DNA from: Prorocentrum cordatum
Taxonomy: Eukaryota
DNA: 54,071 nucleotides
Reading direction: 5' to 3'
Assembly (NCBI GenBank): GCA_963575745.1
Contig: CAUYUJ010000266.1
Location: 62,001 to 116,071, forward strand
The translations under genes and the position numbers were made by a program. Position 1 is the stretch's first letter. Each line of letters opens with the position of its first letter. Shown one piece after another: positions 3,993-43,536 of the stretch. Under the pieces are notes generated by a model. That model worked only from the letters and a program-made list of their open reading frames with translations, was not told where the DNA came from and searched no databases.

Positions 3993-6900
3993 TACCCTGT
4001 GACGTACCCAACCCATTTGTATCATGGGAAGCGAGGAATTGGCCGAAACTTGCATGGACAATCAAATTGCAGGATCCGTTGTTTGATATGTAAACTACTT
4101 GGGACACGCGCCTATGGCATGATGCGCAAGAGAACCATGCAAGAACGAGGGGCGACACCTACAGGCTCGAAGAGGACATGGGGAGTCGGGAACGAAGAGC
4201 TGGAGAAAGACGTGCGGGAAGCCCACTGTGCTGGGCCCCCCAGCAGGCTTCGAAAGTGGCGACAGTTTCACAGATCGCAGCCCCCCAGGGATGGCGAGGT
4301 CTAATTTCAGTCCGCGGTGTGTACTCTGTGCTGGGCCCCCCAGCAGGCCTCGAAAGTGGCGACGGTTTCACAGATCGCAGCCCCCCAAGGATGGCGAGGT
4401 CTAGTTTGAGTCTGCGGTGGGTACCCACTGTGCTGGGCCCCCCAGCAGGCCTCGAAAGTGGCGACCATTTCACAGATCGCAGCCCCCCAGGGATGGCGAG
4501 GTCACATTTGAACCCGCCGTGGGTACCCACTGTGCTGGGCCCCCCAGCAGGCCTCGAAAGTGGCGACAGTTCCACAGATCGCAGCCCCCCAGGGATGGCA
4601 AGGTCTAATCTGAACCCGCGGGGTGTACCCACTGTGCTGGCCCCCCCAGCAGGCCTCGAAAGTGGCGACAGTTTCACAGATCGCAGCCCCCCAGGGATGG
4701 CGAGGTCTAATTTGAACCCGCCGTGTGTACCCACTGCGCTGGGCCCCCCAGCAGGCCTCGAAAGTGGCGACAGTTTCACAGATCGCAGCCCCCCAGGGAT
4801 GGCGAGGTCTAATTGGAGTCCGCGGTGTGTACCCACTGTGCTGGGCCCCCCCAGCAGGCCTCGAAAGTGGCGACGTTCACAGATCGCAGCCCCCCCAGGG
4901 ATGGCGAGGTCAATTTGAACCCGCCGTGTGTACCCACTGCGCTGGGCCCCCCAGCAGGCCTCGAAAGTGGCGACAGTTTCACAGATCGCAGCCCCCCAAG
5001 GATGGCGAGGTCTAATTGGAGTCCGCGGTGTGTACCCACTGTGATGGGCCCCCCAGCAGGCCTCGAAAGTGGCGACAGTTTCACAGATCGCAGCCCCCCA
5101 GGGATGGCGAGGTCTAATTTCAGTCCGCGGTGTGTACATTGTGCTGGGCTCCCCAGCAGGTCTCGAAAGTGGCGACAGTTTCACAGATCGCAGCCCCCCA
5201 GGGATGGCGCGGTCTAGTTTCAGTCAGCGGTGGGTACCCACTGTGTTGAGCCCCCAAGCAGGCCTCGAAAGTAAGGACAGTTTCGCAGATCGCGGCCCCC
5301 CATGGATGGCGAGGTTTAATTTCAGTCCGCGGTGTGTACCCACTGTGCTGGGCCCCCCAGCAGGCCCCGAACGCAACGACAGTTTCACCGATCGCAGCCC
5401 CCCAGGGATGGCGAGGTCACATTTGAATCCGCCGTGGGTACCCACTGTGCTGGGCCCCCCAGCAGGCCTCGAAAGTGGCGACCGTTTCACAGATCGCAGC
5501 CCCCCAAGGATGGCGAGGTCCAATTTGAATCCGCCGTGTGTACCCACTGTGCTGGGCCCCCCAGCAGGCCTCGAAAGTGGCGACAGTTTCACAAATCGCA
5601 GCACCCCAAGGATGGCGAGGTCACATACTTTTGAATCCGCCGTGGGTACCCACTGAGCTGCCCCCCCCCCCCACCCCCCCCCCCAGCAGGCCTCGAAAGT
5701 GCGACAGTATCGCAGAACGCAACCCCCCCAGGGATGGCGAGGTTTAATTTGAATCCGCGGTGTGTACCCACTGTGCTGGGCCCCCCCCCCAGCAGGCCTC
5801 GAAAGTGGCGACAGTTTCACAGATCGCAGCCCCCCAGGGACGGCGAGGTCTAATTTGAATCCGTCGTGTGTACCAGAGTGCTGGGCCCCCCAGCAAGTTC
5901 TCGAAAGTGGTGACAGTTTCACAGATCGCAGCCCCCCAGGGATGGCGAGGTCTAATTTGAATCCGCCGTGTGTGCCCACTGTGCTGGGCCCCCCAGCAGG
6001 CCTCGAAAGTGGCGACAGTTTCACAGATCGCAGCCCCCCAGGGATGGCGAGGTCACATTTGAATCCGCGGTGACTACCCACTGTGCTGGGCCCCCCAGCA
6101 GGCCTGGAAAGTGGCGACAGTTTCACAGATCGCAGTCCCCCAGGGATGGCGAGGTCTAATTTGAGTCTGCGGTGGGCACCCACTGTGCTGGGCCCCCCAG
6201 CAGACCTCGAAAGTGGCGACAGTTTCACAGATCGCAGCCCCCCAGGGATGGCGAGGTCACATTTGAATCCGCCGTGGGTGCCCACTGTGCTGGGCACCCC
6301 AGCAGGCCCCCCGAACGGTGGCGACAGTTTTTACAGATCGCAGCCCCACCAAGGATGGCGAGGTCAAATTTGAATCCGCCGTGGGTGCCCACTGTGCTGG
6401 CCCCCAGCAGCCCTCGAACGTGGCGACAGTTTCACAATCGCAGCCCCCCAGGGATGGCGAGGTCTAATTGGAATCCGCAGTGGGACCCCCTGTGCTGCCC
6501 CTCAGCAGCCCTCGAAAGTGGCGACAGTTTCACAGATCGCAGCCCTCCAGGGATGGCGAGGTCACATTTGAACCCGCCGTGGGTACCCACTGTGCTGGGC
6601 CCCCCAGCGGCCCTCGAAAGTGGCGACAGTTTCACAGATCGCAGCCCCCCAGGGATGGCGAGGTCCCATTTGAATCCGCCGTGGGTGCCCACTGTGCTGG
6701 GCCCCCAGCAGGCCTCGAAAGTGGCGACAGATCGCAGCCCCCCAGGGATGGCGAGGTCTAATTTGAACCCGCCGTGGGTACCCACTGTGCTGGGCCCCCC
6801 AGCAGGCCCCGAACGTGGCGACAGTTTCACAGATCGCAACCTCCCAGGGATGGCGAGGTCCAATCTGAATCCGCCGTGGGTACCCACTGTGCTGGGCCCC

Positions 6901-7370
6901 CCAGCAGCCCTCGAGAGTGGCGACAGTTTCACAGATCGCAGCCCGCAAGGGATGGCGAGGTCAAATTTGAATCCGCCGTGGGTACCCACTGTGCTGGGCC
7001 CCCCAGCAGGCCTCGAACGCAACGACAGTTTCACCGATCGCAGCCCCCCAGGGATGGCGAGGTCAAATTTGCATCCGTCGTGGGTACCCACTGTGCTGGG
7101 CCCCCCAGCGGGCCTCGAAAGTGGCGACAGTTTCACAGATCGCAGCACCCCAGGGATGGCGAGGTCGCATTTGAACCCGCCGTGGGTACCCACTGTGCTG
7201 GGCCCCCCAGCAGGCCTCGACAGTGGCGACGGTTTCACAGATCGCAGCCCCCCAGCTGGCACGCAGCGACGAGCGAAGGCAGGGGGGAAGAGAGGGACGG
7301 GGGGGTGGGAAGGAAGGTTCGCGCGAGCAGTGCTCTATTCAAAACGAGCACCCAACGCAGGAGGGTTGGG
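3993..7370 (-). mobile_element. HINE/DINE-like non-autonomous element, family A (102-bp tandem array, ~30 units)
   Basis: Subterminal IR CCCAACCC (4007-4014) / GGGTTGGG (7363-7370). Right-end hairpin CCCAAC..GTTGGG is preceded by TTCAAAACGAG. The array spans ~4222-7256. Both flanks are A residues within the satellite. Confidence 0.75.
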
Positions 7371-7542
7371 AAGTCTATTGGAAAGCCTCACAACAAGGAA
7401 TCCTTTGGACAGCCTCACATAAGGATTCAATGGGAAAACCTAACAAAAGGAATCCGTTGGAAAGCACCATAAAAGGAATTCTAATGGAAAGCTTCACAAA
7501 CAAAAGAAACCAGTTGGAAATAATCCTTTGGAAAACATCACG

Positions 7543-7920: not shown

Positions 7921-7937
7921 AATAAAAAGATACACAA

Positions 7938-9211
7938 TATCCTGGCGACGGACCCAACCATATGCAATTGTGAATAACGCTTTGTGGGTGCCGCTTTCGG
8001 TGGGGCTCCTTATGGGGCCACGAAAAGCGTGCCACGAAACGCTGTCCTGGGCGTGCGGGACGCATGAGGGCGGTAGCATTGGGGCTTTCGGTGGAGCTCC
8101 CTATGGGGCCACGAAACGTGTGAGGGGTGTGCCGAAATGGGCGCGGCGCCGCCATGCGGACGCAGCCACTGGGGCCTTCGGTGGAGCTCCCTATGGGGCC
8201 ACGAAACGTGTGAGGGGTGTGCCGAAATCGGTGCGGCGCCGCCATGCGCCCGCAGCCACTGGGGCCTTCGGTGGAGCTCCCTATGGGGCCACGAAACGTG
8301 TGAGGGGTGTGCCGAAAGGGTGCGGCGCCGCCATGCGCCCGCAGCCACTGGGGCCTTCGGTGGAGCTCCCTATGGGGCCACGAAACGTGTGAGGGTGTGC
8401 CGACATGGGTGCGCCGCCGCCATGCGCCCGCAGCCACTGGGGCCTTCGGTGGAGCTCCCGATGGGCCCACGAAACGGTGAGGGGTGTGCCGAAAATGGGT
8501 GCGCCGCATGCGCCCCGCAGCCACTGGGGCCTTCGGTGGAGCTCCCCATGGGGCCACGAAACGTTGTGAGGGGTGTGCCGAAATGAGGTGCGGCGCCGCC
8601 ATGCGCCCGCAGCCACTGGGGCCCTCGGTGGAGCTCCCTATGGGGCCACGAAACGTGTGAGGGGTGTGCCGAAATGTGTGCGGCGCCGCCATGCGCCCGC
8701 AGCCACTGGGGCCTTCGGTGGAGCTCCATATGGGGCCACGAAACGTGTGAGGGGTGTGCCGAAATGGGTGCGCCGCCGCCATGCGCCCGCAGCCACTGGG
8801 GCTTCCGGTGGAGCTCCCGATGGGGCCACGAAACGTGTGAGGGGTGTGCCGACATGGGTGCGGCGCCGCCATGCGCCCGCAGCCACTGGGGCCCTCGGTG
8901 GAGCTCCCTATGGGGCCACGAAACGTGTGAGGGGTGTGCTGAAATGGGTGCGGCGCCGCCATGCGCCCGCAGCCACTGGGGCCTTCGGTGGAGCCCCCTA
9001 TGGGGCCACGAAACGCGTGAGGGGTGCGCCGTGATAGTGGGAGGAGGGAAGGGGGAGGGGGGAGGAGGCGGAGGAGGAGGAAGGAAGGAAGGAAGGAGAG
9101 GAGAGGAGAGGAGAGGAGAGGAGAGGAGAGGGGAGGAAAGGAGAGGAGTGGAGAGGAGACGCGGGGCACCGTCTCTTCAAAACGAGGACCCAACACCACA
9201 GGATGGTTGGG
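7938..9211 (-). mobile_element. HINE/DINE-like element, family B (90-bp array ~11 units plus (GAGAG)n)
   Basis: Subterminal IR CCCAACCAT / ATGGTTGGG. Right end is TTCAAAACGAGGA-CCCAAC-accacaggatg-GTTGGG followed by an A run. Microsatellite at ~9095-9155. Confidence 0.82.
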
Positions 9212-9306
9212 AAAAACGCCTGGCCAGGTTATCTGAGCCCCCAGACCAGAAAAACCAGAAAACCAACGCTGGGCCAAGTTTTCTGAGCTCTCAGACCAGG
9301 AAAAAA

Positions 9307-10329
9307 TTATCCCGGCAACGCAACCTAACAGCGATGTGTAGGAGCATATCTGGAAGATTTCCCCTTAAGATTCAGATGAGAATCCAGTTGTAGAATTCTG
9401 CTGTTCTCGCAGTCGTAGTCGCATTCGCGATGACAGTCGCAGTGGCAACGGCAGTCGCAGTCACAGCCTCAGCCTCAGCCTTCCTCAGCCTCAGCCTCCG
9501 CCTGCCTCAGCCTCAGCCTGCCTCAGCCTCAGCCTCAGCCTGCTTCAGCCTCAGCCTCAGTCTGCCTTCAGCCTCGGCCTCAGCCTCAGCCTGCCTCAGC
9601 TTCAGCCTGCATCAGCCTCAGCCTCAGCCTCAGCCTGCCTCAGCATCAGCCTGCTTCAGCCTCAGCCTCAGCCTGCCTCAGCCTCAGCCTCAGTCTGCTT
9701 CAGCCTCAGCCTCAGTCTGCCTTCAGCCTCGGCCTCGGCCTCAGCCTGCCTCAGCCTCAGCCTGCCTCGGCCGCAGCATCAGCCTGCCTCAGCAGTCAAA
9801 ATGTTGCCCAGGAATGCAGTTCTGGGAACTAGAAGAACACGAAGTGGCCTACAGTTGGCTCCGGGCATTCAAAATCATACCCAGGAGGTGAGTTCTGGGA
9901 AGTGGAAGAGCACGAAGTGGCCTACAATTGGCTCCGGGCATCCAAAATGTGGCCCGGGAGTGGAGTTCTGGAACCTCGAAGACTACGAAGTGGCCTACAA
10001 TTGGCTCCGGGCATCCAAAATGTGTCCCGGGAATGGAGTTCTGGGAACTCGAAGACCACGAAGTGACCTACAATTGGCTCCGGGCATTCAAAATGTACGC
10101 CGGGAATGGAGTTCTGGGAACTCGAAGACCACGAAGTGGCCTACAGTTGGCTCCGGGCATCCAAAATGTACGCCGGGAATGGAGTTCTAGCAGCGCCAAG
10201 AGCGATTTTGCGAGGATGTCCCAGTTGGGCTTCGACGGCAGCCGCCCCGGGTCCCGCCCCGACCCCCCTGCGGAGTCATGATGCTCTCTTTTGAAACCAC
10301 TAGAAACCTATCAGCAAGAGCTGTTAGGT
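9307..10329 (-). mobile_element. HINE/DINE-like element, family E ((CAGCCT)n plus 60-bp array)
   Basis: Perfect 10-bp subterminal IR ACCTAACAGC (9323-9332) / GCTGTTAGGT (10320-10329), with a partial IR ACCTATCAGC at 10306-10315. Flanked by A runs. The empty site is at ~32650-32670 (accagaaaaaaaacataaac). Confidence 0.82.
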
Positions 10330-10494
10330 AAAAACAGAAACACAAACGCCTGGCCAGGTTTTCTGAGCTCCCAGACCAGAACAACCAGAAAAACCAACGC
10401 CTGGCCAAGTTTTCTGCGCCCCCAGGAGAAGGAGGAGCGGGGGCAGGAGGAGGGCGAGAGAGAGAGAGAGAAACAAAAAAAGAGGGATACATAC

Positions 10495-10565
<71 letters not shown>

Positions 10566-10789
10566 GAGAGAAACAGAGAAAGAGAGAGAGAGAGAGAGGA
10601 GAGACAGCGACAAAGACAGAGGGATAACGGAGAAAGAGTGGGGCACCGAGATTGAAGGAGGGAGAGCGAGAAAGAGTGGTTCTCTCTCACGAACAAAGAT
10701 GGTATTGGGCAAACCACCAGGGCTGTGGGCAAAATTGTTACGGACCTTCCGTTTTTGGTTTTGGTTTTTTTCCACAAGAACTCCCCCTG

Positions 10790-11645
10790 GCGGCCCGTCC
10801 CGCTGGCCACCCGAAAGGGAGCTCCAGGAGCTCAATCCCGAAGAAATCCCCCAAGACGGCTCAAGATGGCCTCCAAAAAGGCTTCCAAGTCCGCCCAAGA
10901 TGGTCCAAGATGGCCTCCAAGACGGCCCGAGAGAGTCCAAGATGCCTCCAGTTCGTCCAAGAAGCCTCCAAGACGCCAAGATCGCCCAGGAGCCTTTCAA
11001 GATGTCCCCATGACAGCTCAAGAAGCCCCCAAGGGGGCCCAAGAGGGCCCCGACGGCCGAAGAGGCCTCCAAGACGCCTACGCTGCCTCGAAAACCGCCC
11101 TGACACGGCCCATGAAGGCCGGAAATCGGTTCCGGGAGGCCTCAAAGACGGTGTCGGACGGCGTCAAATGGACCAAGAACGCTCTAAGACGACCAACGAC
11201 TCCCTCAAAGAGCCCCCGGAGGCCCCCCAAAAGGCCAAGGAGGCCTCCCGAGAAGCATTCAAAAGGTCCACAGGAAGTTCCAACAAAACACCCAGAACCC
11301 CCCAAAAAACCAAGAAACTTTCAAACATGTCCCGTTCCCTCCTGCTGTTTCCCCCCTCTCCTTTTCCATCTCTTTTCCCCCCCAAGTGTTCCCCGAAGGT
11401 GTCGAGGCGAGACTCGGGGAATACATGGTCCGATGGTTTGGTCGAGCTCCGCCTCCAACAACGCTCAATATGCGCCAAACACTGCCTCCACCGAATGGCT
11501 ACGATTATTTCCTCATGCTAATTTCTGGTCGCCGAGTAAACAATGCAGTCCGTCGCCCAACCAAGTTTGTGCAGATGCTAAATTTCAGCGCCGTCGCACA
11601 AAAAGGCCCAGGAGGCCTCCCGAGATGGCCCCAACAAGCCCAAGT
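10790..11645. repeat. Low-complexity CCAAGATGGCC/CCAAGA interspersed repeat abutting the broken 3' end of the RTE LINE
   Basis: Recurrent ccaagatggcctccaagacg motifs; duplicated at ~33140-34000. Confidence 0.55.
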
Positions 11646-14600
11646 ATCGCGGTGGAAGTCGTGCAGCGTCAGCTTGCGGCCCAGGTATTTCGCGCTTTCC
11701 TCGGCGCTGAGGATTTCGACCTTGTCGTCGTCGATGTCCACGTGTGTAATGCATCGCCCCTGTCGCCTGCTCACATTTGTGGGGATGTTCGTTTTGCCGG
11801 GGCGCAGTGTAAGTCCACACTTCGCTGCTTCGTGTTTGAGGTCCCGCAAGATGCGCTTGAATTGTCGTAGATTGGGTGCTAAGGGAAGTACGTCGTCAGC
11901 AAATCTCAAGTTGGTCAAGCGCGTCGCCTGGGCACTTCCCAATTGTATGCCGAAGCCCTTCCGCGCCCAAGTCGGTTTGATGTTCCGGAAAATTTGCTCG
12001 AGTAGCGCGTTGAGTAAATATGAGCTCAGCGGGTCCCCTTGCTTGACGCCGCGCTCAATGTTGAATTGTCTGCTTCTGACGTCGGTCTTTACCGTGGCTC
12101 TTTGATCGCTGTAGAAATTCTGCAGCATGGTGATGTAGGGTTCTGGCACATCTCGTTTCCTCAGGGCTCCCCACAAAACACAGATGGTCGACGCAGTCGA
12201 AAGCCTTCTTGAAATCGGCAGCAGCCGTCCAGAGTGGGAGCTGCCATTCGTAGGACTGCTCGCAAAGTATAGTTGCAGTGAAGAGGTGATCCTCTGTGCT
12301 TGAGCCCTTGCGGAAGCCAGCTTGGCCAGGCGATTGCTGCGCGTCGAAGAGCGTGTCAAGTCGGTTGCAAAGCAGTCGGGACATGAGTTTGTATAGTAGC
12401 GGTATGATGGCGATGGGTCTGTAGTTGCTTGGTAATTGCGGGTCTCCGGACTTATGGATCACGCTGATGGTGGTGTGTCTCCACGGTTCCGGCGGTGACT
12501 GCTCAAGTGCTATAGCGTCGTCGAAGAGCACCAACAAATGGTTCACGATCGCGCCCCCCCTGCTTGCAGCAGCTCTGCGGTGAGCCCAGCCGTGTCTTTG
12601 CACATGCCGTTTTTGAGATGCTTCGCTGCTTGGCGCAACTCCCCGCAGGTGAATGGTGGAATACTCTGTCGAGGTCACTTTGCTGATTCTTCTTGGGCGT
12701 CTGGGGAGCTGTTGGGCGTAGGCGAAGTAGCGCTTTCAGGGCGTCGGTGCAGCTTCTCATAGAAGTCCGCGAAGACGTCTGTAATTCCCTGTCGGTCCGT
12801 CTCGTCGGAGCCCTTTGCTGTTGTCATGGCCGGTATGAGCTCCTTCTTCTTGCTGGACTTGATCCCAGAGATCTTGTTCAGGCCGCGGAAACTAACGATG
12901 ATGTCGTTCAGGATTGCCTGCCGTTGAGCCCTTTTGATGTCCCGGTGCGCACGTAGAATACGTTTGCTGAGAGCTGTTCGGGTGGTTGTGTCGACGTACG
13001 GTGTGTATCTGCGTTGCGTAGTAAGTGCGTGCAGGTGTTGCTTTGCCGCGTCGTCGTTGCTAGCTGCGCTTTGTTGAAGATGTTGTTGTTGGTCTTGTTG
13101 TTGCTGGTAGTCTCTCTGGGCTGCTACTAGTGCTTTTTCGGTGTGTGCAACGGTGTCTCGGGGACCACTTGGCGGGATGATGGTAGTGAGGTGTCTCTTC
13201 AGATGGTGCTGGAAAACGGGGTCGTTCGGTCGGGGAAGCCCCCGGTGCGTGCGAGTCTGTCGTCGTTTTCGTCGTCGTGTTCGCGGTGTCGCGTCGCCCA
13301 GTGCTAGTCGGACGTGCGCGGCTTGGTGGTCGGAGCCGAGGTCGGGGCACGTCGTTGCAAACGAATCCAGGACCAAATACCGGGCCTGCTGATCCATCAG
13401 AATGTAATCGATCTGCGTTTGCTTGTGGTCGGTGCCAGCGCTCGTGCACGTGAACACGCTGTCAAAATGATTGTAAAACATCGCGTTTGTGATTGTGAGT
13501 TTGCGCACGCACGCCCACGATCGTAGCCGGGTGCCGCGCTGGTTGTACCCGCTCTGCCCGCGGTTGCCAATAGTGCGCTTCTCTGCCCTGCTAGCGCTGG
13601 AATCGTCGTCGTCGTCGCTCCGTTTACCAACTCGTGCGTTGAAGCCTCCTGTGACGATGGTCGTCCGGTGCTGTTGGTGGGCATCAGCGTGTATTTCTGC
13701 AAGTACGTCGTGCATACATTGCGCGCGTTGGTCACTGCATACTCCATGTGGGAAGTAAGCCGCGACGATTCGGAGCAGACGATGCGGGAAGTCGACGTCG
13801 ATGCAGGCGACCCGCTCGTTAACTGCTTTGAAGCTTCGCATGTATCGCGCATGTCGTTTATGAACAAAGAATGCACCTCGCGTCGGACTGTCATGCCCAG
13901 AAACTGCGAATATGTGCGCGCCAGGCTCCGTGACCCAGAACTCTCTTTTTTCTGTCCGCCATGTTTCACTGAGTGCCACGACGTCCCATCGTGCGTCGGA
14001 AAGCTCCTGCAAGAGAAGGTCGATCGCTGTGTCGGCAGTGAAACTCCGGGCGCTTTTGTGTATGACCGTGAAGTTCCTATCATCGTTGCTGCGTCGTGGA
14101 GTCGTGGTCGTGGTTTGTCGGTAGGCTGGTGTTATGGTTGTCGCCGTCGGATAATGCGCGTCCAGCGTCGGCTGCTGGTGGAGAGAGCGCGTTGGTCGCA
14201 AGTCCCACGGTGCGTCACCTTCTGCGTGGCTGCATCGTCCTCGTCCGCCGCCGGTGCTGGATTGAGGTAGTCGCTGTTGTTGCAATTGTAGATGCTGCTC
14301 CGGCTGCGGATGTAAATTCATGCCAGAGGGTGGAGATGAGAGTGGGATGTCGGATATTGGAGGCTGCTGGTCGGAACGCTGGGTTGGAGGGGCCTGGGAG
14401 TCGACAGATGGAGGTAGACATGTGGATGGTGGGCGCTGGAGGTCGATCGGTGGAGGCGGGAGTGGGACGTCGGATGCTGGAGGCGGAGTCGCAGAGGACG
14501 AGGTCGGAGACACCCGGAACGAATAATGATGACCATGTCCATGTCGAGGCTCCTTGTCAGCACAAGGAGTTGGATACCTTGCGCGCGAATGTAGAACTGG

Positions 14601-14783
14601 CCGCAAGAGTGAAACCATGTCTTGCGAAGCCTTGGAGTGCATGTCGCTTGGCCCCGGGTCGTCAGGCCGAACATCAGGTCGCCGAGAACCGTGCTGATGA
14701 TGCAGAGTCCTGTCTGGTACCTTGACGGCTTGCCTGGCCGCGTCATGGGTGTCAACAATAATCTGTGCATCATGTTCCCCCAT
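11645..14783 (-). pseudogene. LINE ORF2 (AP endonuclease plus reverse transcriptase), disrupted
   Basis: APE motifs: WDVVALSETWR, TGGFNARVG, QIDYIL, GSDHQ. RT motifs: NYRPIAII, QAGFRKG, DFKKAFDCV, GVKQGDPLS, LRFADD, KYLG. There is an in-frame TGA at 12675 and frameshifts near 12555 and 12170. Confidence 0.93.
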
Positions 14784-15062
14784 TTTGCGAATCCTCTTGG
14801 GGGTTATGGGTGAAACGTTTGGGCTCGAGTGGAGAGTCGGGTGCGCCGGGGCGGGGTTCGTCGGGTCAGAGACGGGGTTGAAACGAGAAGAAAGAATGGG
14901 TTTGGGAGCGCCGTCCTGGGCGTAAGTGAAGTCGAAGGTCGGAGATAAAGCCGCATCTTCCTGCGCATGTCGCCGATGATGCCGGTCGCCAGCAGCTCCT
15001 TTGGAGTACTTTGTGGCTCCGTGAAAGAATTGACTATATGGTGAAACTGTTGGAAGCTGCCA

Positions 15063-31193: not shown

Positions 31194-32565
31194 TCCGGGC
31201 GAAGGACCCAACCATATGCAATTGTGAATAACGCTTTGTGGGTGCCGCTTTCGTTGGGGCTCCTTATGGGGCCACGAAAAGCGTGCCACGAAACGCTGTC
31301 CTGGGCGTGCGGGACGCATGAGGGCGGTAGCAGTGGGGCTTTCGGTGGAGCTCCCTATGAGGCCACGAAACGTGTGAGGGGTGTGCCGAAATGGGTGCGG
31401 CGCCGCCATGCGGACGCAGCCACTGGGGCCTTCGGTGGAGCTCCCTATGGGGCCACGAAACGTGTGAGGGGTGTGCCGAAATGGTTGCGGCGCCGCCATG
31501 CGCCCGCAGCCGCTGGGGCCTTCGGTGGAGCTCCCTATGGGGCCACGAAACGTGTGAGGGGTGTGCCGAAATGGGTGCGGCGCCGCCATGCGCCCGCAGC
31601 CACTGGGGCCTTCGGTGGAGCTCCCTATGGGGCCACGAAACGTGTGAAGGGTGTGCCGACATGGGTGCGCCGCCGCCATGCGCCCGCAGCCACTGGGGCC
31701 TTCGGTGGAGCTCCCCATGGGGCCACGAAACGTGTGAGGGGTGTGCCGAAATGGGTGCGGCGCCGCCATGCGCCCGCAGCCACTGGGGCCTTCGGTGGAG
31801 CTCCCCATGGGGCCACGAAACGTGTGAGGGGTGTGCCGACATGGGCGCGGCGCCGCCATGCGGACGCAGCCACTGGGGCCTTCGGTGGAGCTCCCTATGG
31901 GGCCACGAAACGTGTGAGGGGTGTGCCGAAATGGGTGCGGCGCCGCCATGCGCCCGCAGCCACTGGGGCCTTCGGTGGAGCTCCCTATGGGGCCACGAAG
32001 CGTGTGAGGGGTGTGCCGAAATGGGCGCGGCGCCGCCATGCGCCCGCAGCCACTGGGGCCTTCGGTGGAGCTCCCTATGGGGCCACGAAGCGTGTGAGGG
32101 GTGTGCCGAAATGGGTGCGGCGCCGCCATGCGGCCGCAGCCACTGGGGCCTTCGGTGGAGCTCCCGATGGGGCCACGAAACGTGTGAGGGGTGTGCCGAC
32201 ATGGGTGCGGCGCCGCCATGCGCCCGCAGCCACTGGGGCCTTTCGGTGGAGCTCCCTATGGGGCCACGAAACGTGTGAGGGGTGTGCCGACATGCGCGCG
32301 GCGCCGCCATGCGGACGCAGCCACTGGGGCCTTCGGTGGAGCTCCCTATGGGGCCACGAACGCGTGAGGGGTGTGCCGTGATAGTGGGAGGAGGGAAGGG
32401 GGAGGGGGGAAGAGGCGGAGGAGGAGGAAGGAAGGAGAGGAGAGGAGAGGAGAGGAGAGGAGAGGAGAGGAGAGGAGAGGAGAGGAGAGGAGAGGAGAGG
32501 AGTGGAGAGGAGACGCGGGGCACCGTCTCTTCAAAACGAGGACCCAACACCACGGGATGGTTGGG
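31194..32565 (-). mobile_element. HINE-like family B element, duplicate of 7938-9211
   Basis: CCCAACCAT / ATGGTTGGG subterminal IR, ~12-13 units of 90 bp, (GAGAG)n. Confidence 0.82.
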
Positions 32566-32820
32566 ACAAACGCCTGGCCAGGTTTTCTGAGCCCCCAGAC
32601 CAGAAAAAAACAGAAAAACCAACGCTGGGCCAAGTTTTCTGAGCTCTCAGACCAGAAAAAAAACATAAACACAACCGCCTGGCCAGGTTTTCTGAGCTCC
32701 CAGACCAGAACAACCAGAAACACCAACGCCTGGCCAAGTTTTCTGCGCCCCCAGGAGGAGGGGGAGCGGGAGCAGGAGGAGGGCGAGAGAGTGAGAGAGA
32801 TAGAGAGAGGGATACATATT

Positions 32821-36900: not shown

Positions 36901-39900
36901 CGAGGCTCCTTGTCAGCACAAGGAGTTGGATACCTTGCACGCGAATGTAGAACTGGCCGCAAGAGTGAAACCATGTCTTGCGAAGCCTTGGAGTGCATGT
37001 CGCTTGGCTCCGGGTCGTCAGGCCGAACATCAGGTAGCCGAGAACCGTGCTGATGATGCAGGGTCCTGTCTGGCACCTTGACGGGTTGCCTGGCCGCGAC
37101 ATGGGTGTCAACAATAATCTGTGTATCATGTTCCCCCATTTTGTGAATCCTTTTGGGGGTTGGCGGTGAAACGTTTGGGTTTGGGTGGAGAGTCGGGTGC
37201 GTCGGGGCGGGGTTCGTCGGGTCGGAGACGGGGTTGAAACGAGAAGAAAGAGTGGGTTTGGGAGCGCCGTCCTGGGCGTAAGTGAAGTCGAAGGTCGGAG
37301 ATAAAGCCGCATCTTCGTGCGCATGTCGCCGATGATGCCGGTCGCCAGCAGCTCCTTTGGAGTACTTTGTGGCTCCGTGAAAGAATTGATTATATGGTGA
37401 AACGGTTGGAAGCTGCCATCATTGTAGATCTCGCGCCGCTTTCCACTTCGCCATCAATGCTTGGACGCCTTCTTTGACGTCGTCTCCCTCCCCGTATGTG
37501 GTCAGCTGGCCGTCCTCGGTGACTTCTGCAATCAGCTTGCCTTTATACTTGATTGTACCTCTATCCCAAAATATGCGGATAGACTGCTGCGCAAGGCCCG
37601 TATTCATAAGCTGGTGCTTCACCTGCCCGAGTGTTTTGTCCACGCGGCGTTTTTCGATTGGGTCATTGTTTGTGTACCATAACTTGTCCTCATTTTTCCA
37701 CTCGGCCTCTTTGCCGCGCCACTTTTTCAAAAATCCTACTTTCCCGGCATGCGTCTTGAACTGTGCCATGCCCATGTCGCCCAGATCGCTGAAGGTGAAT
37801 GTGCTGTCGATATTGTCCATGACGCTGATTTCGTTGAGAATGTCGGTCATATGCTGGGTGATGTCCTTCTCTGGGATCTCCGACTCCAGTCCACCGAAGA
37901 TCACCTGTAAGTCCCTGTCGCTATCCTTGTAGATCACGGTGGAAGTTTTCTTCGTGATGGTGTTCCGTAGCTCGTTCGTGTCCTCATTGTTTCCCAACCA
38001 TCCTGTGGTGTTGGGTCCTCGTTTTGAAGAGACGGTGCCCCGCGTTCCTCTCCTCTCCTCTCCTCTCCTCTCCTCTCCTCTCCTCTCCTCCCCTCCTCCT
38101 CCTCCTCATCCTCCTCCTCCTCCTCCTTCTCCCTCCTCCCCCTCTTCCCTGCGTTTCACCCACCCAGTACAGCGCTTCGCAGCCCCATAGGAGCTCCACC
38201 GAAGGCCCCAGCGCCCGCGCCCGCATGCGTCACCCACACCCAATTCGGCACACCCCTCACACGCTTCGCGGCTCCATAGGGAGCTCCACCGAAGGCCCCA
38301 GTGCCCGCGCCCGCATGCGTCACCCACCCCCATTTCGGCACACCCCTCACACGTTTCGTGGCTCCATAGGGAGCTCCACCGAAGGCCCCAGTGCCCGCGC
38401 CCGCATGCGTCACCCACGCCCATTTCGGCACACCCCTCACACGTTTCGTGGCTCCATAGGGAGCTCCACCGAAGGCCCCAGTGCCCGCGCCCGCATGCGT
38501 CACCCACACCCATTTCGGCACACCCCTCACACGTTTCGTGGCTCCATAGGGAGCTCCACCGAAGGCCCCAGTGCCCGCGCCCGCATGCGTCACCCACACC
38601 CATTTCGGCACACCCCTCACACGTTTCGCTCCATCCATAGGGAGCTCCACCGAAGGCCCCAGTGCCCGCGCCCGCATGCGTCACCCACACCCACTTCGGC
38701 ACACCCCTCACACGTTTCGTGGCTCCATAGGGAGCTCCACCGAAGGCCCCAGTGCCCGCGCCCGCATGCGTCACCCACACCCATTTCGGCACACCCCTCA
38801 CACGCTTCGTGGCTCCATAGGGAGCTCCACCGAAGGCCCCAGTGCCCGCGCCCGCATGCGTCAACCACACCCATTTCGGCACACCCCTCACACGCTTCGT
38901 GGCTCCATAGGGAGCTCCGCCGAAGGCTCCAGTGCCCGCGCCCGCATGCGTCACCCACACCCATTTCGGCACACCCCTCACACGTTTCGTGGCTCCATAG
39001 GGAGCTCCACCGAAGGCCCCAGTGCCCGCGCCCGCTTGCGTCACCCACACCCATTTCGGCACACCCCTCACACGTTTCGTGGCTCCATAGGGAGCTCCAC
39101 CGAAGGCCCCAGTGCCCGCGCCCGCATGCGTCGCCCACACCCATTTCGGCACACCCCTCACACGCTTCGTGGCTCCATAGGGAGCTCCGCCGAAGGCCCC
39201 AATGCCCGCGCCGCGTGCGTCACCCACGCACCCATTTCGCGTCACAACCCCCTCACACGTTTCGTTGCTTCCATATTTTTTTTTTTTTTGGGAGCTTTTT
39301 TCCCCCCAAAAAACCGACGGCGGCAGTGCCCGGACGCTTTGCGTCAGCCACACACAGTTCGGCACACCACTCACACGTTTCGTGGCATCCATGGGGAGCT
39401 CCACGAAGCCCCGTGCCCGTCGCCCGCTTTGCTGTTCAGTGCATACCCATTTCGGACACCCTCAACACGGTTCGTGGACCCATTAGGGAGCTCCGCCGAA
39501 GGACCCAGTGCCCGCGCCCGCATGCGTCAGCCACACCCATGTCGGCACGCCCCTCACGCGCTCCGTGGCCCCATAGGGAGCTCCGCCGAAGGTCCCAGTG
39601 GGTGTGCCCGCATGCGTCCCGCACACCCATTTCGGCACACCCCTCGGCCCCAGCGCCCGCGCCCGCATGCGTCAACCACACCCATTTCGGCACACCCCTC
39701 AAACGTTTCGCGGTCCCATGGGGAGCGCCACTGAAGGCCCCAGTGCCCGCGCCCGCATGCGTCAGCCACACCCGTTTCGTCAACCCCCATCACACGTTTC
39801 GTGGCCGCACAGGGAGCTCCACCGAAGGCCCTAGTGGGTGTGCCCGCATGCGTCCCGCACACCCATTTCGGCACATCCCTCGTACGTTTCGTGGCCCCGT

Positions 39901-40477
39901 AGGGGGCTCCACCGAGAAGAGATTCACAATTGCAGTATTCACGATTGCATATGGTTGGGTCCTTCGCCAGGATGATTTTGGTGATCATTTTGTTGATGTC
40001 GTCAACTTGCCCTTGTAGCTGCGTTGCTGCTTCCATTGCTGAAGTCGCCGTGGTGGATGCTGGATTTGCGGTGTCGCGGATATCGTTGATGTCAATCGAG
40101 TGCAGGCGCACCATCTTGTAGAGATCGACGAGGATCTCCCTGTCCGACATCTTGGGGAGGTCGGGGTCGTTGCCCTTTTTGTGCTTGCCCTCCGGCGATT
40201 GACCCACTGTAGGTGCCTCCTTGCGGATCATTCCTCCAAAATCGAGCACGCAAGAGAAGTCAACAATCGAGTGCACAATCAGTAGAAAGAGTATCGAGCG
40301 AGCGAGCGGGCGAAGGGGAAGGGGGGGAGAAGCGGCGACGGGAGGAAGGGCGGGGCGGACACGCAGGGGCGAAGGTGCGATGGAGGAGAGGGGGAAGGAG
40401 GGAAGAGGGGAGAGAGGAGAGGAGGACGAGGGGAGGGAGGACGAGAGAGGACGGAAGGAGGGGGAGGAAAAGGGGAA
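34000..40477 (-). mobile_element. RTE-type LINE, copy 2 (ORF2 remnants 34000-37139; ORF1 37419-40231 split by an insertion)
   Basis: Colinear with 11645-16137; shares the EESAK-stop and the same 3' break. Confidence 0.9.
37993..39975 (+). mobile_element. HINE-like element, family B subfamily 2 (90-bp array ~19 units), inserted in LINE ORF1
   Basis: TTT|CCCAACCATcctgtggtGTTGGG..(TCCTC)n..array..ATGGTTGGG-TCCT-tcgcc-AGGA-tga|TTTT. The empty site in copy 1 is ctcattgttttttgtgatc (~15628-15646). Confidence 0.88.
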
Positions 40478-41411: not shown

Positions 41412-43536
41412 TTAGCCTGACGAAGGACCCAACCATGTGCAGGTGTGAATACCGCTGTTGACACTACCAATTTCGGTGGGGCTCCCTATAGGGCCACGAA
41501 ACGTGTGAAGGGGATGGGTGTGCGGGACGCATGCGGGCGGCAGCACTGGGGCCTTCGGTGGAGCTCCCTATGGGGCCACGAAACGCGTGAGGAAGTTGAC
41601 GACATGGGTGTGGCTGACGCATGCGGGCGCGGGCACTGGGGCCTTCGGTGGAGCTCCCTATGGGACCACGAAACGTTTGACGGGTGTGCCGACATGGGTG
41701 TGGGTGACGCATGCGGGCGCGGGCACTGGGGCCTTCGGTGGAGCTCCCTATGGGGCCACGAAACGTGTGAGGGGTGTGCCGACGCATCCCGGATGCGGGG
41801 CCACGAAACGTGTGAGGGGTGTGCCCCTGACGCATGCGGGCGCGGGCACTGGGCCTTCGGCGGAGCTCCCTATGGGGCCACGAAACGTGTGAGGGGTGTG
41901 CCGAAATGGGTGTGGCGTGACGCATGCGGGCGCGGGCACTGGGCCTTCGGTGGAGCTTCCTATGGAGCCACGAAACGTGTGAGGGGTGTGCCGAAATGGG
42001 TGTGGGTGACGCATGCGGGCGCGGGCACTGGGGCCTTCGGTGGAGCTCCCTATGGAGCCACGAAACGTGTGAGGGGTGTGCCGAAATGGGTGTGGCTGGA
42101 CGCATGCGGCGCGGGCACTGGGGCCTTCGGTGGAGCTCCCTATGGGAGCCACGAAACGTGTGAGGGGTGTGCCGAAATGGGTGTGGCTGGCGCATGCGGG
42201 CGCGGGCACTGGGGCCTTCGGTGGAGCTCCCTATGGAGCCACGAAACGTGTGAGGGGTGTGCCGAAATGGGTGTGGGTGACGCATGCGGGCGCGGGCACT
42301 GGGGCCTTCGGCGGAGCTTCCTACGTGTGAGGGGTGTGCCGAAATGTGTGGCTGACGCAATGGGGCCATCGTGGAGCTCCCAATGAGCCACGAAACGTTG
42401 TGAGGGGGTGCCGACCATTCGGGCGAGGGCACTTTGCCTTCGTGTGGACACCCTATGGAGCCACGAACTGTGAGGGGTGTGCCGAAATGGGTGTGGCTGA
42501 CGCATGCGGGCGCGGGCACTGGGGCCTTCGGTGGAGCTCCCTATGGAGCCACGAAACGTGTGAGGGGTGTGCCGAAATGGGTGTGGGGGACGCATGCGGC
42601 CGCGGGCACTGGGGCCTTCGGTGGAGCTCCCTATGGAGCCACGAAACGTGTGAGGGGTGTGCCGAAATGGGTGTGGGTGACGCATGCGGCGCGGGCACTG
42701 GGTCTTCGGCGGAGCTCCCTATTGGAGCCACGAAACGTGTGAGGGGTGTGCCGAAATGGGTGTGGGTGACGCATGCGGGCGCGGGCACTGGGGCCTTCGG
42801 TGGAGCTCCCTATGGAGCCACGAAACGTGTGAGGGGTGTGCCGAAATGGGTGTGGGTGACGCATGCGGGCGCGGGCACTGGGGCCTTCGGTGGAGCTCCC
42901 TATGGAGCCACGAAACGTGTGAGGGGTGTGCCGAAATGGGTGTGGGTGACGCATGCGGGCGCGGGCACTGGGGCCTTCGGTGGAGCTCCCTATGGAGCCA
43001 CGAAACGTGTGAGGGGTGTGCCGAAATGGGTGTGGGTGACGCATGCGGCGCGGGCACTGGGGCCTTCGGTGGAGCTCCCTATGGAGCCACGAAACGTGTG
43101 AGGGGTGTGCCGAAATGGGTGTGGGTGACGCATGCGGGCGCGGGCACTGGGGCCTTCGGTGGAGCTCCCTATGGAGCCACGAAACGTGTGAGGGGTGTGC
43201 CGAAATGGGTATGGGTGACGCATGCGGGCGCGGGCACTGGGGCCTTTCGGTGGAGCTCCCTATGGAGCCACGAAGCGTGTGAGGGGTGTGCCGAAATGGG
43301 TGTGGGTGACGCATGCGGGCGCGGGCACTGGGGCCTTCGGTGGAGCTCCCTATGGAGCCACGAAGCGGTGTACTGGGTGGGTGAAGAGGAGAGGAGGAGA
43401 GGAGAGGAGGAGAGAGGAGAGGAGAGGAGAGGAGAGGAGAGGAGAGGAGAGGAGAGGAGAGGAGAGGAGAGGAGAGGAGAGGAACGCGGGGCACCGTCTC
43501 TTCAAAACGAGGACCCAACACCACAGGTTGGTTGGG
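41412..43536 (-). mobile_element. HINE-like element, family B subfamily 2 (90-bp array ~21 units)
   Basis: Same ends in reverse orientation. It splits gacgacgaaa|aaacaagaaaacc, which is intact at ~17058-17080. Confidence 0.88.

What the first reader, a model, noticed from the sequence alone, without database searches (positions are those of the whole stretch)
3993..43536. Three families of satellite-carrying Helentron/DINE-like elements with in-window empty sites
Seen: seven elements (3993-7370, 7938-9211, 9307-10329, 28707-30628, 31194-32565, 37993-39975, 41412-43536) share one plan. It runs: T-run, terminal 8-10-bp subTIR, a nearby partial inverted copy, a long tandem array, a second subTIR 14-17 nt from the far end, then a T-run. 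Families B and E also carry a microsatellite. In family B the far end forms a small stem-loop (TCCT-tcgcc-AGGA). Three elements have empty sites in the other duplicate, showing insertion inside T/A homopolymers with no discrete TSD. The subTIRs differ by family (CCCAACCC, CCCAACCAT, ACCTAACAGC) and the arrays are unrelated (102, 90, 60 bp). Established: this is the architecture of Drosophila DINE-1 and other Helentron-associated INEs. Inference: a recently active rolling-circle system is dispersing satellites in this genome. I do not know of a description in dinoflagellates but cannot search. No Rep/helicase is encoded in this window.
Basis: partly seen in the sequence, partly recalled or inferred. 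Interest (0 to 1): 0.8.

Follow-up and report, generated by a model that had tools for sequence, protein, structure and literature searches.

The report
Satellite-carrying rolling-circle-type transposons in a dinoflagellate
A quarter of this stretch, probably from a dinoflagellate, consists of small non-coding mobile elements that carry long tandem repeats and have ends built like those of Helitron2/Helentron rolling-circle transposons, so satellite DNA here appears to spread by transposition, although the enzyme that moves them was not found.

Summary
The observation largely holds. The window is an ~18.8-kb tandem duplication. It holds six complete elements and one truncated element, 24% of the window. 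Three of them are absent from the other duplicate at clean A/T-run sites.

In one orientation every element reads: T-run, terminal 8-10-bp inverted repeat that hairpins with a downstream copy, conserved ~30 nt, tandem array, second inverted repeat 13-16 nt from the far end, conserved tail, T-run. Families A and B also carry a purine tract or microsatellite between the 5' conserved block and the array.

This is the published Helitron2 / HINE (DINE-1, oyster Cg_HINE) plan.

- Family E's array period is 73 bp, not 60.
- A2 has lost one end.
- Families A and B share homologous ends.
- The far-end stem-loop is not conserved.
- Filled sites carry 2-4 more T/A than empty sites.

Relatives occur in 13 of 29 metagenome hits. 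Two sequencing runs hold the ends at roughly 1000-fold the depth of the neighbouring flank. The closest named host protein is from Prorocentrum cordatum.

No Rep/helicase was found, and no genome was available to search. Two LINE families with an endonuclease lie in the window, so a retroposon reading is not excluded.

Verdict: a new variant of a known kind. Confidence 0.6, interest 0.5.

The parts
3993..7370 (-). Element A1, complete, 3378 bp. 5' terminal inverted repeat and hairpin at 7351-7370; purine-rich tract next to it; 102-bp array at 4222-7255 (29.7 copies); 3' inverted repeat CCCAACCC at 4007-4014; 14-nt tail.
7938..9211 (-). Element B1, complete, 1274 bp. Hairpin at 9189-9211; (GAGGA)n at 9039-9159; 90-bp array at 8080-9031; 3' inverted repeat at 7953-7961.
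9307..10329 (-). Element E, complete, 1023 bp, inserted after the duplication. Hairpin at 10306-10329 (-7.0 kcal/mol, z -5.0); 73-bp array at 9797-10188; (CAGCCT)n at 9464-9793; 3' inverted repeat ACCTAACAGC at 9323-9332.
28707..30628 (-). Element A2, the duplicate of A1. It keeps only the hairpin end (30609-30628) and 17.9 array copies. The other end is lost where the array abuts a LINE.
31194..32565 (-). Element B2, the duplicate of B1 (92.8% identity). Hairpin at 32543-32565; microsatellite at 32386-32513; array at 31334-32378; 3' inverted repeat at 31207-31215.
37993..39975 (+). Element B3, complete, 1983 bp, inserted after the duplication into LINE sequence. Hairpin at 37993-38015; microsatellite at 38046-38149; 90-bp array at 38185-39915; 3' inverted repeat at 39951-39959.
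41412..43536 (-). Element B4, complete, 2125 bp, inserted after the duplication into a 352-bp repeat. Hairpin at 43514-43536; microsatellite at 43385-43483; array at 41514-43364; 3' inverted repeat at 41428-41435. About 95% identical to B3 over 1149 bp.
32656..32663 (.). Empty site for E: a run of 8 A. The filled site has 6 A + 5 A.
15635..15640 (.). Empty site for B3: a run of 6 T. The filled site has 3 T + 4 T plus one extra G.
17065..17070 (.). Empty site for B4: a run of 6 A. The filled site has 3 A + 5 A. Two further paralogous empty units, at 16712-16717 and 41052-41057, also have 6 A.
23654..28804 (-). Context, not part of the elements. A LINE with an open 1716-aa frame (AP-type endonuclease, reverse transcriptase by homologues, RNase H), followed by a (GGA)n-rich tract at 23059-23717. 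It is unique to copy 2 and abuts A2.
10330..15637 (-). Context. A second LINE (endonuclease plus RVT_1), duplicated at 32659-37992. It is the target of the B3 insertion.

Best explanation
These are non-autonomous DNA transposons of the Helitron2/Helentron structural type (HINE-like). A trans-acting HUH Rep-helicase encoded elsewhere in the genome most likely copies them by rolling-circle, single-strand transposition.

SHOWN
- About 50 nt at each end is enough to define an element. One relative is only 112 bp long and has no array.
- One end starts, after a few T, with an 8-10-bp repeat that hairpins with a copy 8-13 nt downstream.
- The other end carries the inverted copy of that repeat 13-16 nt from the terminus, followed by a conserved tail (TTCGCCAGGMTAA) and T.
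- Whole units, including their satellite arrays, entered T/A runs after a segmental duplication.
- The same satellite stays attached to the same ends in related organisms.

INFERRED
- Rep nicks at the T-run/terminus junction and the strand is peeled off.
- Pairing of the two inverted repeats brings the ends together and marks termination. When the ends are joined in silico the repeats form a -7 to -10 kcal/mol stem with the joint in the loop, like a Rep origin.
- The strand is then pasted between T's of single-stranded target DNA. The variable extra T's are element-borne, as reported for mosquito and Drosophila Helentrons.
- The arrays are passive cargo that can grow or shrink by slippage. Transposition is therefore what disperses these satellites.
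For: ENDS
- The inverted repeat is exact in 7 of 8 complete elements. It lies at offset 0 from one end and 13-16 nt from the other; 0-5 of 2000 shuffles match this.
- The end-to-end complementarity (8-10 bp) is always longer than the local hairpin (5-6 bp).
- 5' hairpin: 86 of 90 cells pair, with 2 pairs showing compensatory change, both from family E. RNAalifold predicts the hairpin independently. It folds at -4.1 to -7.0 kcal/mol in 5 of 5 ends tested.
- Joined ends form the repeat stem in 7 of 8 elements, z -3.0 to -5.0.

MODULE ORDER
Family B reads repeat, inverted copy, microsatellite, tandem repeats, repeat, tail. This is the order given for Cg_HINE and DINE-1. The end geometry equals the Helitron2 definition.

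TARGETS AND MOBILITY
- 12 of 15 hairpin ends are preceded by 2 or more T, and 6 of 15 by exactly 5 T. 8 of 9 far ends are followed by 2 or more T.
- Three empty sites lie in T/A runs.
- Element-borne, variable T's are reported for Helentrons (PMC4067079). Insertion at TTTT|T is reported for Chlamydomonas Helitron2 (PMC3627910).

SPREAD
- 13 of 29 metagenome loci carry the same end in other contexts. Three of them hold the 90-bp satellite at 77-85% identity, and one is a 112-bp minimal element.
- In run X1 the summed word depth is 31,374 over the B3 end bin and 13.9 in the next host bin. Contig pieces stop at 39976/39977 and 41411.

PRECEDENT
A Helitron2-like RepHel exists in a dinoflagellate (PMC8788227).
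Against: - No Rep/helicase was found. This covers window ORFs, 33 of 63 ORFs from 12 related loci and the long ORF of L026.
- No genome was available, so ends and enzyme are not linked.
- The 3' hairpin that Helitron2 and HINE definitions include is absent or marginal.
- The 3' repeat lies closer to the end (13-16 nt) than published ranges (20-30 and 38-60 nt).
- Filled sites have 2-4 more T/A than empty sites. For B4 this holds against 3 of 3 paralogous empty units. A short duplication or an A-tail would explain it equally well.
- Covariation rests on one divergent family (E).
- Two LINE families with AP endonuclease sit in the same window.
Confidence: 0.6

Rival explanations
1. These are non-autonomous partners of a different single-strand (HUH) transposon, either Replitron-like or an undescribed group. 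It would use the same logic of end pairing and T-run insertion but would not be a RepHel Helitron.
For: - The 3' hairpin of Helitron2/HINE is missing.
- The 3' tail is unusually short.
- A 9-nt direct repeat (GGACCCAAC) lies near both ends. Replitrons are defined by short direct terminal repeats, and one Replitron insertion had a 2-bp duplication (PMC10288648).
- No RepHel was seen.
Against: - Replitron direct repeats sit at the exact termini, and no asymmetric inverted repeats are described for them.
- Here the termini differ from each other (TTAGCC... versus ...GGTTGGG), and the defining feature is an inverted pair.
- That paper's text holds no occurrence of 'dinoflagellate', and it reports no similar proteins in major TSAR clades other than stramenopiles.
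- The subterminal direct repeat follows automatically from a 5' hairpin plus a 3' inverted repeat.
Confidence: 0.12
2. These are SINE-like retroposons mobilised by a LINE. Read on the other strand, the element ends in a stem-loop followed by a short A-tail. The LINE endonuclease nicks a T-run, which primes on the tail, with little or no target duplication.
For: - The extra nucleotides in filled sites are A's next to the stem-loop end. A run of 5 A is the mode, in 6 of 15 ends.
- A terminal stem-loop just before the tail is what stringent LINE/SINE pairs use (recalled, not from a call).
- Two LINE families with AP endonuclease lie in the window, one with an intact 1716-aa frame.
- Targets are A/T runs.
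Against: - The end motif occurs only at the six element ends, not in either LINE. Self-BLAST shows no similarity between element ends and LINE sequence. The region downstream of the LINE frame shows no such stem-loop.
- There is no tRNA, 7SL or 5S-like head.
- Both flanks lie in the same short homopolymer in 3 of 3 empty-site pairs, so any duplication is 2-4 nt at most.
- An 8-10-bp complementarity between one terminus and the other subterminus, kept through sequence change in three families, has no role in retroposition.
- The module order matches HINEs.
Confidence: 0.12
3. These are cut-and-paste (DDE) miniature elements that make a 2-nt TT duplication in T-rich DNA.
For: - Inverted repeats are present.
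- Filled sites exceed empty sites by 2 nt for B3 and B4.
- A minimal 112-bp copy exists.
Against: - The repeats are asymmetric, terminal at one end and 13-16 nt internal at the other, in all 7 elements with an exact repeat.
- The two outermost termini are not inverted copies of each other.
- The excess is 4 nt for E.
- No footprints are seen at the empty sites.
- No transposase domain was found.
Confidence: 0.06
4. The units are not transposons. Satellite arrays were reinserted by recombination or as extrachromosomal circles, and the shared ends are part of an older composite repeat.
For: Tandem arrays readily form circles (general knowledge, not from a call). B3 and B4 differ more at one side (84%) than at the other (95%).
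Against: - Boundaries are precise and identical in five window events and in the metagenome copies.
- A copy without any array exists.
- Three unrelated arrays lie between ends of one plan.
- Insertion is consistently into T/A runs.
Confidence: 0.05

Closest known systems
Helitron2 non-autonomous elements, e.g. Helitron-1N1_CRe of Chlamydomonas (Bao and Jurka 2013, PMC3627910; passages read)
   Same: - An 8-15-bp asymmetric terminal inverted repeat.
- The 5' copy lies 0-2 bp from the end and forms a hairpin with downstream bases; the 3' copy is subterminal.
- Compensatory changes keep the pairing.
- Insertion after TTTT without duplication.
- A 5' T preference.
   Different: - The published 3' repeat lies 20-30 bp from the end and is followed by a hairpin. 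Here it lies 13-16 nt from the end and no stable hairpin follows.
- Long satellite arrays are not noted in the passages I read.
- The partner RepHel is known there and unknown here.
Helentron-associated interspersed elements: Drosophila DINE-1, mite HINE-Mo, oyster Cg_HINE (PMC4067079 and PMC7492417; passages read)
   Same: - Module order: subterminal repeat, nearby inverted copy, microsatellite, central tandem repeats, second repeat.
- T-rich/TT targets, with a variable number of T's at the boundaries.
- Related flanks can carry unrelated satellites, and each satellite stays tied to its flanks.
- Insertions into other repeats.
   Different: - Animal hosts.
- Repeats of 11-15 bp, against 8-10 bp here.
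- A 3' palindrome is present there.
- The 3' repeat lies 38-60 bp from the end in the mite.
- In family E the microsatellite lies on the other side of the array.
- Whether the partner has the Helentron endonuclease domain is unknown here.
Helitron2-like RepHel element of Symbiodinium microadriaticum (Heringer and Kuhn 2021, PMC8788227; passages read)
   Same: It has a dinoflagellate host, belongs to the Helentron/Helitron2 clade, and is the kind of autonomous partner expected here.
   Different: Only a protein and one element are mentioned. Its ends were not available to me, so no sequence link to these elements could be tested. No satellite-carrying derivatives are mentioned in the passages read.
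Replitrons (Craig 2023, PMC10288648; passages read)
   Same: Copy-and-paste HUH transposons of algae and protists, with about 50 nt of terminal sequence shared with non-autonomous partners and a hairpin near one end.
   Different: They are defined by short direct repeats at the exact termini and, for Replitron-1 of Chlamydomonas, an RG target, and they have no asymmetric inverted repeats. The word 'dinoflagellate' does not occur in that text.

Membership tests
Helitron2 / Helentron-type non-autonomous elements (HINE) | A 5' inverted repeat within 0-4 nt of the 5' terminus, 8-15 bp long. | tested here: met
   Offset 0 and length 8-10 bp in 7 of 8 complete elements; 0-5 of 2000 shuffles do as well.
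Helitron2 / Helentron-type non-autonomous elements (HINE) | The 5' repeat pairs with nearby downstream bases (5' hairpin, or 'IR' 1-22 nt away). | tested here: met
   A 6-bp helix with 86 of 90 cells paired and 2 compensatory pairs. Predicted independently. Folds at -4.1 to -7.0 kcal/mol in 5 of 5 ends.
Helitron2 / Helentron-type non-autonomous elements (HINE) | The 3' inverted repeat is subterminal, not terminal (asymmetry). | tested here: met
   It lies 13-16 nt from the 3' end in 7 of 7 elements with an exact repeat. This is closer than the published 20-30 or 38-60 nt.
Helitron2 / Helentron-type non-autonomous elements (HINE) | A hairpin or palindrome between the 3' repeat and the 3' end. 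| tested here: not met
   A 3-4-bp stem exists in family B only. 25 of 36 cells pair, no better than shuffles, with no compensatory change. Folding z is +0.07 to +0.95 in 5 of 5 ends.
Helitron2 / Helentron-type non-autonomous elements (HINE) | Insertion between T's of T-rich DNA without target duplication. | tested here: inconclusive
   Three of 3 empty sites are T/A runs, and T's flank 12 of 15 and 8 of 9 ends. However, filled sites are 2, 2 and 4 nt longer than empty sites. These extra bases could be element-borne T's or a short duplication.
Helitron2 / Helentron-type non-autonomous elements (HINE) | Central tandem repeats and a microsatellite (frequent in HINEs, not obligatory). | tested here: met
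   Arrays of 102, 90 and 73 bp; (GAGGA)n in family B and (CAGCCT)n in family E.
Helitron2 / Helentron-type non-autonomous elements (HINE) | An autonomous partner with the same ends encodes Rep plus a PIF1-like helicase, with or without an AP endonuclease. | not testable with these tools
   No genome is held. Metagenome records are not searchable by family. None was found in the window or in fetched loci.
Helitron2 / Helentron-type non-autonomous elements (HINE) | Copy-and-paste through single-stranded or circular intermediates. | not testable with these tools
   I have only an in-silico fold of joined ends. No reads of the host were available.
Replitrons | Short direct repeats at the exact termini. 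| tested here: not met
   The termini read TTAGCC... and ...GGTTGGG. The shared GGACCCAAC is subterminal.
SINE / LINE-dependent retroposon | A Pol III-type head, a tail shared with a LINE, and flanking duplications of several nt or more. | tested here: not met
   No tRNA and no Rfam family. The end motif is absent from both LINEs. The excess at filled sites is only 2-4 nt, all A/T.

The most novel reading that the evidence does not exclude
A dinoflagellate lineage of rolling-circle (HUH) transposons has dispensed with the 3' hairpin. Instead it marks its joint by a stem formed between the two inverted repeats, with the nick site in the loop. Its non-autonomous derivatives, present at the order of a thousand or more copies, would be the main makers and dispersers of satellite arrays in a multi-gigabase genome. 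Because they carry 8-10-nt inverted repeats within 30 nt of both ends, some copies may be among the 'introner elements' counted in Prorocentrum and other dinoflagellates. The mobilising enzyme may not be a canonical RepHel.
Probability: 0.18. Interest if true: 0.75.

Novelty: new variant of a known kind. Interest (0 to 1): 0.5.

Why it matters
Dinoflagellate genomes are huge and full of unclassified repeats, and their transposon biology is barely described.

Here a well-delimited mobile unit occupies 24% of a 54-kb stretch. It carries three unrelated satellites between ends of one plan. It moved after a local duplication and recurs in related organisms with the same satellite attached.

If the enzyme is a Helitron2-like RepHel, transposon-borne satellite dispersal, known from flies, mites and bivalves, would extend to alveolates. 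It would also give a concrete, searchable signature (about 50 nt per end) for annotating part of the 'unknown' repeat fraction.

The hairpin-less 3' end and the stem formed across joined ends offer a testable variant of how rolling-circle transposons recognise their termination point.

Tried and rejected
- Whole genome: none is held. Paired ends, target logos and long coding copies could therefore not be counted.
- Earlier findings of this scan: four look-ups found nothing.
- Sequencing runs found with 45400-51200: three runs hold only 5-6% of its words. None is the source organism, and no RNA run was found.
- The end motif in prokaryote genome contigs gave 5 hits, all without the hairpin, so they are chance. 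In viral contigs it gave 0 hits.
- 16 of 29 metagenome hits are chance matches without element context.
- L026, an 8.6-kb contig starting inside an end, looked like a possible long copy. Its 1228-aa frame is a Cys-rich repeat protein with no Pfam family and no transposase.
- Searching the records behind five loci for the Helitron N-terminal family was not possible.
- Spliced-leader relic: 0 matches at up to 3 mismatches. This says little in 54 kb.
- Rfam found no family. ARAGORN found no tRNA.
- The Atlas look-up of the FG-GAP frame gave only weak hits (0.84).
- Long frames through the arrays were considered as coding repeats. 12 of 12 give no credible family.
- The 3' stem-loop was tested and rejected as a conserved feature.
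- The literature search was badly posed: none of the 15 papers listed holds 'Helentron', so it gave nothing usable.
- A link between Helitrons and dinoflagellate introners was looked for. The one relevant paper reports Helitron-derived introners; the example in the passages read is a fungus, and its dataset was not checked.
- Read laying bins with no cover in X2 and X3 are not interpreted.

Full report
WHAT THE WINDOW IS

The 54,071-bp window has 58.8% G+C and is eukaryotic. No whole genome is held for it.

Self-BLAST shows a tandem segmental duplication. Copy 1 (31 to about 17392) is collinear with copy 2 (18824 to about 43858). Matching blocks are:
- 31-1128 vs 18824-19884 (85.0%)
- 1127-2261 vs 19957-21117 (88.1%)
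- 5420-9031 vs 28706-32289 (90.9%)
- 10330-15637 vs 32659-37992 (95.1%)
- 15633-17067 vs 39973-41411 (95.1%)
- 17066-17392 vs 43537-43858 (93.9%)

The duplicated unit holds:
- an FG-GAP repeat gene;
- 26/52-bp and 53-bp repeats;
- a LINE on the minus strand with endonuclease and RVT_1 domains at 10330-15637 and 32659-37992.

Copy 2 also holds a LINE with an open 1716-aa frame at 23654-28804 on the minus strand. It has an endonuclease and RNase H, and its four homologues (26-29% identity) carry RT, RNase H and endonuclease families.

CHECKING THE OBSERVATION

Tandem Repeats Finder confirms the arrays:
- 102 bp at 4222-7255 (29.7 copies) and 28706-30514 (17.9 copies);
- 90 bp at 8080-9031, 31334-32378, 38185-39915 and 41514-43364.

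Family E holds a 73-bp array (9797-10188, 5.4 copies) and a (CAGCCT)n tract (9464-9793). It has no 60-bp array, so that figure is wrong. The three monomers share nothing beyond 7-mers.

Three elements are present in one duplicate and absent from the other:

| Element | Coordinates | Empty site | Filled site |
|---|---|---|---|
| E | 9307-10329 | A8 at 32656-32663 | A6 + A5 |
| B3 | 37993-39975 | T6 at 15635-15640 | T3 + T4 |
| B4 | 41412-43536 | A6 at 17065-17070 | A3 + A5 |

For B4, two further paralogous empty units (16712-16717 and 41052-41057) also have A6.

A1/A2 and B1/B2 are copies made by the duplication, so the window records five insertion events. A2 has lost one end: its array stops at 28706 against the LINE. 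The seven elements cover 13,077 bp, 24.2% of the window.

ANATOMY

The elements are best read on the minus strand for A1, A2, B1, B2, B4 and E, and on the plus strand for B3. Every element then runs as follows:
1. a few T;
2. a terminal repeat (CCCAACCC, CCCAACCAT/CCCAACCA or ACCTAACAGC);
3. 8-13 nt;
4. its partial inverted copy (GTTGGG or TAGGT);
5. a conserved block (TCCTCGTTTTGAAGAG in A and B, weaker in E);
6. a pyrimidine tract or microsatellite (in A and B);
7. the array;
8. 50-230 nt;
9. the full inverted copy of the terminal repeat;
10. a 13-16-nt tail (consensus TTCGCCAGGMTAA);
11. T's.

Measurements:
- The repeat is exact in 7 of 8 complete elements (six from the window, two from metagenomes), at offset 0, 8-10 bp long. 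Only 0-5 of 2000 shuffles do as well. The eighth element, L013a, has one mismatch.
- In the 5' hairpin 86 of 90 cells pair, with two compensatory pairs, both from family E. RNAalifold predicts it independently. It folds at -4.1 to -7.0 kcal/mol (z -1.5 to -5.0) in 5 of 5 ends tested.
25 of 36 cells pair, no better than shuffles, with no compensatory change. The last 30 nt fold no better than shuffles in 5 of 5 ends (z +0.07 to +0.95). What is conserved there is sequence, not structure.
- Families A and B share the 19-nt motif TTCAAAACGAG-V-ACCCAAC. It occurs 6 times in the window against 0.04 expected. Together with the alignments, this shows all three families descend from one kind of end.

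TARGET SITES

Across 15 aligned hairpin ends, 12 are preceded by 2 or more T and 6 by exactly 5 T. Across 9 far ends, 8 are followed by 2 or more T.

Filled sites are longer than empty sites by 2 nt (B4), 2 nt (B3, with one substitution) and 4 nt (E, with one substitution). By homopolymer count the excess is +2, +1 and +3.

'No discrete TSD' is therefore not established. The excess could be:
- element-borne T's of variable number, as reported for Culex and Drosophila Helentrons (PMC4067079);
- a short duplication;
- on the other strand, a short A-tail.

RELATIVES ELSEWHERE

One scan of metagenome contigs with the 19-nt motif returned 29 loci. Of these:
- 13 show the element context (L001, L003, L007, L010, L011, L013, L014, L016, L019, L025, L026, L027, L029);
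- 10 of those show the full hairpin ending in TTGGG, L019 and L029 being one locus at 99.8% identity;
- the other 16 look like chance.

L013, L025 and L027 carry the 90-bp satellite at 77-85% identity next to the same end. The satellite has therefore stayed attached to its ends across species-level divergence. L010 holds a complete 112-bp element with both ends and no array. L013 holds one complete element and the start of a second.

Hits in prokaryote genomes (5) lack the hairpin, and viral contigs gave none.

Three public runs found with a unique part of the window hold only 5-6% of its words. I laid them on 39880-41560. Runs X1 and X3 hold the B-family end and array at very high summed word depth. 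In X1 the depths are:
- 148,335 over array;
- 31,374 over the bin holding the B3 end;
- 13.9 in the next host bin;
- 21,250 over the B4 end;
- 460,121-591,119 over its array.

Contig pieces stop at 39976/39977 on the host side and start at 41411 on the element side. Depth is not copy number. The three-orders-of-magnitude step at the mapped boundary nevertheless shows that the ends are highly repeated in a related organism.

THE HOST

No spliced-leader relic was found.

Among 120 listed relatives of the FG-GAP frame, the only one above 55% identity is 'unnamed protein product [Prorocentrum cordatum]', at 70% (224 of 322) with the same repeat unit. That genome is reported as 4.15 Gb, repeat-rich and 59.7% G+C (PMC10666404, passages). 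A Prorocentrum-like dinoflagellate is therefore probable, but not proven.

WHAT IT IS

The end geometry equals the published definition of Helitron2 (PMC3627910, passages):
- the 5' copy 0-2 bp from the end, forming a hairpin with downstream bases;
- the 3' copy subterminal;
- compensatory changes;
- Chlamydomonas copies inserting at TTTT|T/C without duplication.

The module order equals that of DINE-1 and other HINEs and of the oyster Cg_HINE satellite carriers. That includes 'related flanks with unrelated tandem repeats' and insertion into T-rich DNA (PMC4067079 and PMC7492417, passages).

A Helitron2-like RepHel has been reported from Symbiodinium microadriaticum (PMC8788227, passages).

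The most likely reading is therefore non-autonomous Helitron2/Helentron-type elements moved in trans by a Rep-helicase.

When the two ends are brought together in silico, the inverted repeats form a -7.1 to -10.4 kcal/mol stem with the joint in the loop in 7 of 8 elements (z -3.0 to -5.0). This fits Bao and Jurka's suggestion that pairing of the two repeats sets the end point of rolling-circle copying. It is inference, not demonstration.

WHAT IS MISSING OR AGAINST

No Rep or helicase domain appears in:
- 75 of 143 window frames of 150 aa or more. The 68 frames not scanned mostly lie in arrays or overlap the LINE frames;
- 63 of 183 non-array frames of 80-149 aa;
- 33 of 63 frames of 130 aa or more from 12 related loci;
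- the 1228-aa frame of L026.

The 3' hairpin, part of both published definitions, is not met. The 3' repeat lies closer to the end than published ranges. For these reasons I do not file the elements as members. I call them a variant that works like the family.

RIVALS

1. Another HUH group. Replitrons have direct repeats at the exact termini (PMC10288648). That is not the case here.

2. A LINE-dependent retroposon. On the other strand the element ends in a stem-loop plus about 5 A, two endonuclease-bearing LINE families are present, and the excess A's sit at that end. Against this reading:
   - neither LINE shares the end;
   - there is no tRNA or other Pol III-type head;
   - both flanks always lie in the same short homopolymer;
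   - an 8-10-bp end-to-end complementarity kept through sequence change has no role in retroposition.

3. A DDE miniature element with a 2-nt duplication. The asymmetry of the repeats and the 4-nt excess in E speak against it.

4. Recombinational reinsertion of satellites. The array-less 112-bp copy and the precise shared boundaries speak against it.

NOVELTY

Satellite-carrying HINEs are known in insects, mites and bivalves. Helitron2 is known in green algae, fungi and other hosts.

For dinoflagellates I found only the Symbiodinium RepHel report.
- 'Helentron' plus 'dinoflagellate' gives 1 paper.
- 'Helitron', 'dinoflagellate', 'tandem repeats' and 'transposable elements' give 8 papers, none on this topic by title or abstract.
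- A 2024 review of dinoflagellate genomics holds neither 'Helitron' nor 'satellite'.
- The P. cordatum genome paper's main text holds no 'Helitron'.

Supplements of these papers were not read and may list such repeats.

One lead, not a finding: the operational definition of dinoflagellate 'introner elements' is inverted repeats of 8-20 nt within 30 nt of each intron end (PMC10666404). These ends would satisfy it.

VERDICT

This is a real, well-delimited and formerly mobile element type: a new variant of a known kind in an under-studied host. The mechanism is inferred from structure, and the enzyme is unidentified.

Noticed in passing
window 23654-28804 (minus strand), tail region 23059-23717: A LINE with an uninterrupted 1716-aa frame (AP-type endonuclease at residues 183-359, RNase H at 1362-1473, RT by homologues), followed by a ~650-bp (GGA)n-rich tract. 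It is present only in copy 2, where about 7.6 kb (21117-28706) replaces about 3.2 kb of copy 1 and cuts off element A2. Its nearest database relatives are only 26-29% identical.
   Followed up: partly
window 10330-15637 and 32659-37992 (minus strand): A second LINE family (endonuclease plus RVT_1), duplicated with the segment at 95.1%. Its frame is broken in copy 1 (RVT_1 split over two frames) and more intact in copy 2. B3 inserted into its upstream part.
   Followed up: partly
window 40564-40734 (also 16221-16350, 44001-44289): A 21-bp repeat (TTGGGGCCTCTTGGGCCGTC-like) inside a 352-bp higher-order repeat reaches summed word depths of 68,000-165,000 in run X1. It is therefore as abundant there as the element arrays.
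   Followed up: no
window 32-2261 and 18795-21117 (minus strand): An FG-GAP repeat gene built of 165-bp (55-aa) units, duplicated at 85-88%. Its closest named relative is a Prorocentrum cordatum protein (70%). Most other strong hits are from Planctomycetota and other bacteria at 41-55%.
   Followed up: partly
window 3374-3992, 7369-7500, 1913-2187, 20745-21037, 30627-30759: A 26/52-bp satellite (GGAATCCTTTGGAAAGC...) flanks A1 on both sides, so A1 inserted into it. At that site the element's first two bases coincide with the satellite's expected bases, which leaves the junction ambiguous by 2 nt.
   Followed up: partly
window 7544-7707, 9212-9306, 10330-10500, 32569-32754: 52/53-bp repeats rich in A-runs hold B1 and E only 95 nt apart. 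This may be a local hot spot of insertion, or simply many suitable A/T runs.
   Followed up: no
window 44650-45319 and 51258-52078: Two long (TACA)n/(ATAC)n tracts of 670 and 820 bp, in the same orientation, bracket a ~6-kb stretch of up to 68% G+C that has many open frames but no Pfam family.
   Followed up: no
L001 1041-1426 and L014 2028-2404: Two metagenome contigs share 387 bp (88.9%) ending in ...ACCCAACTCCACACGGG and then diverge. This may be a variant or truncated hairpin end, or a filled/other-site pair.
   Followed up: no
L026 335-4018: A 1228-aa open frame with repeated Cys-containing modules (CLRV.D..FD.WF...C.H.C......H..WC..F.F......C.LYDDC) and no Pfam family lies next to a cut element end and a degenerate CCCTAA-like tract.
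   Followed up: partly
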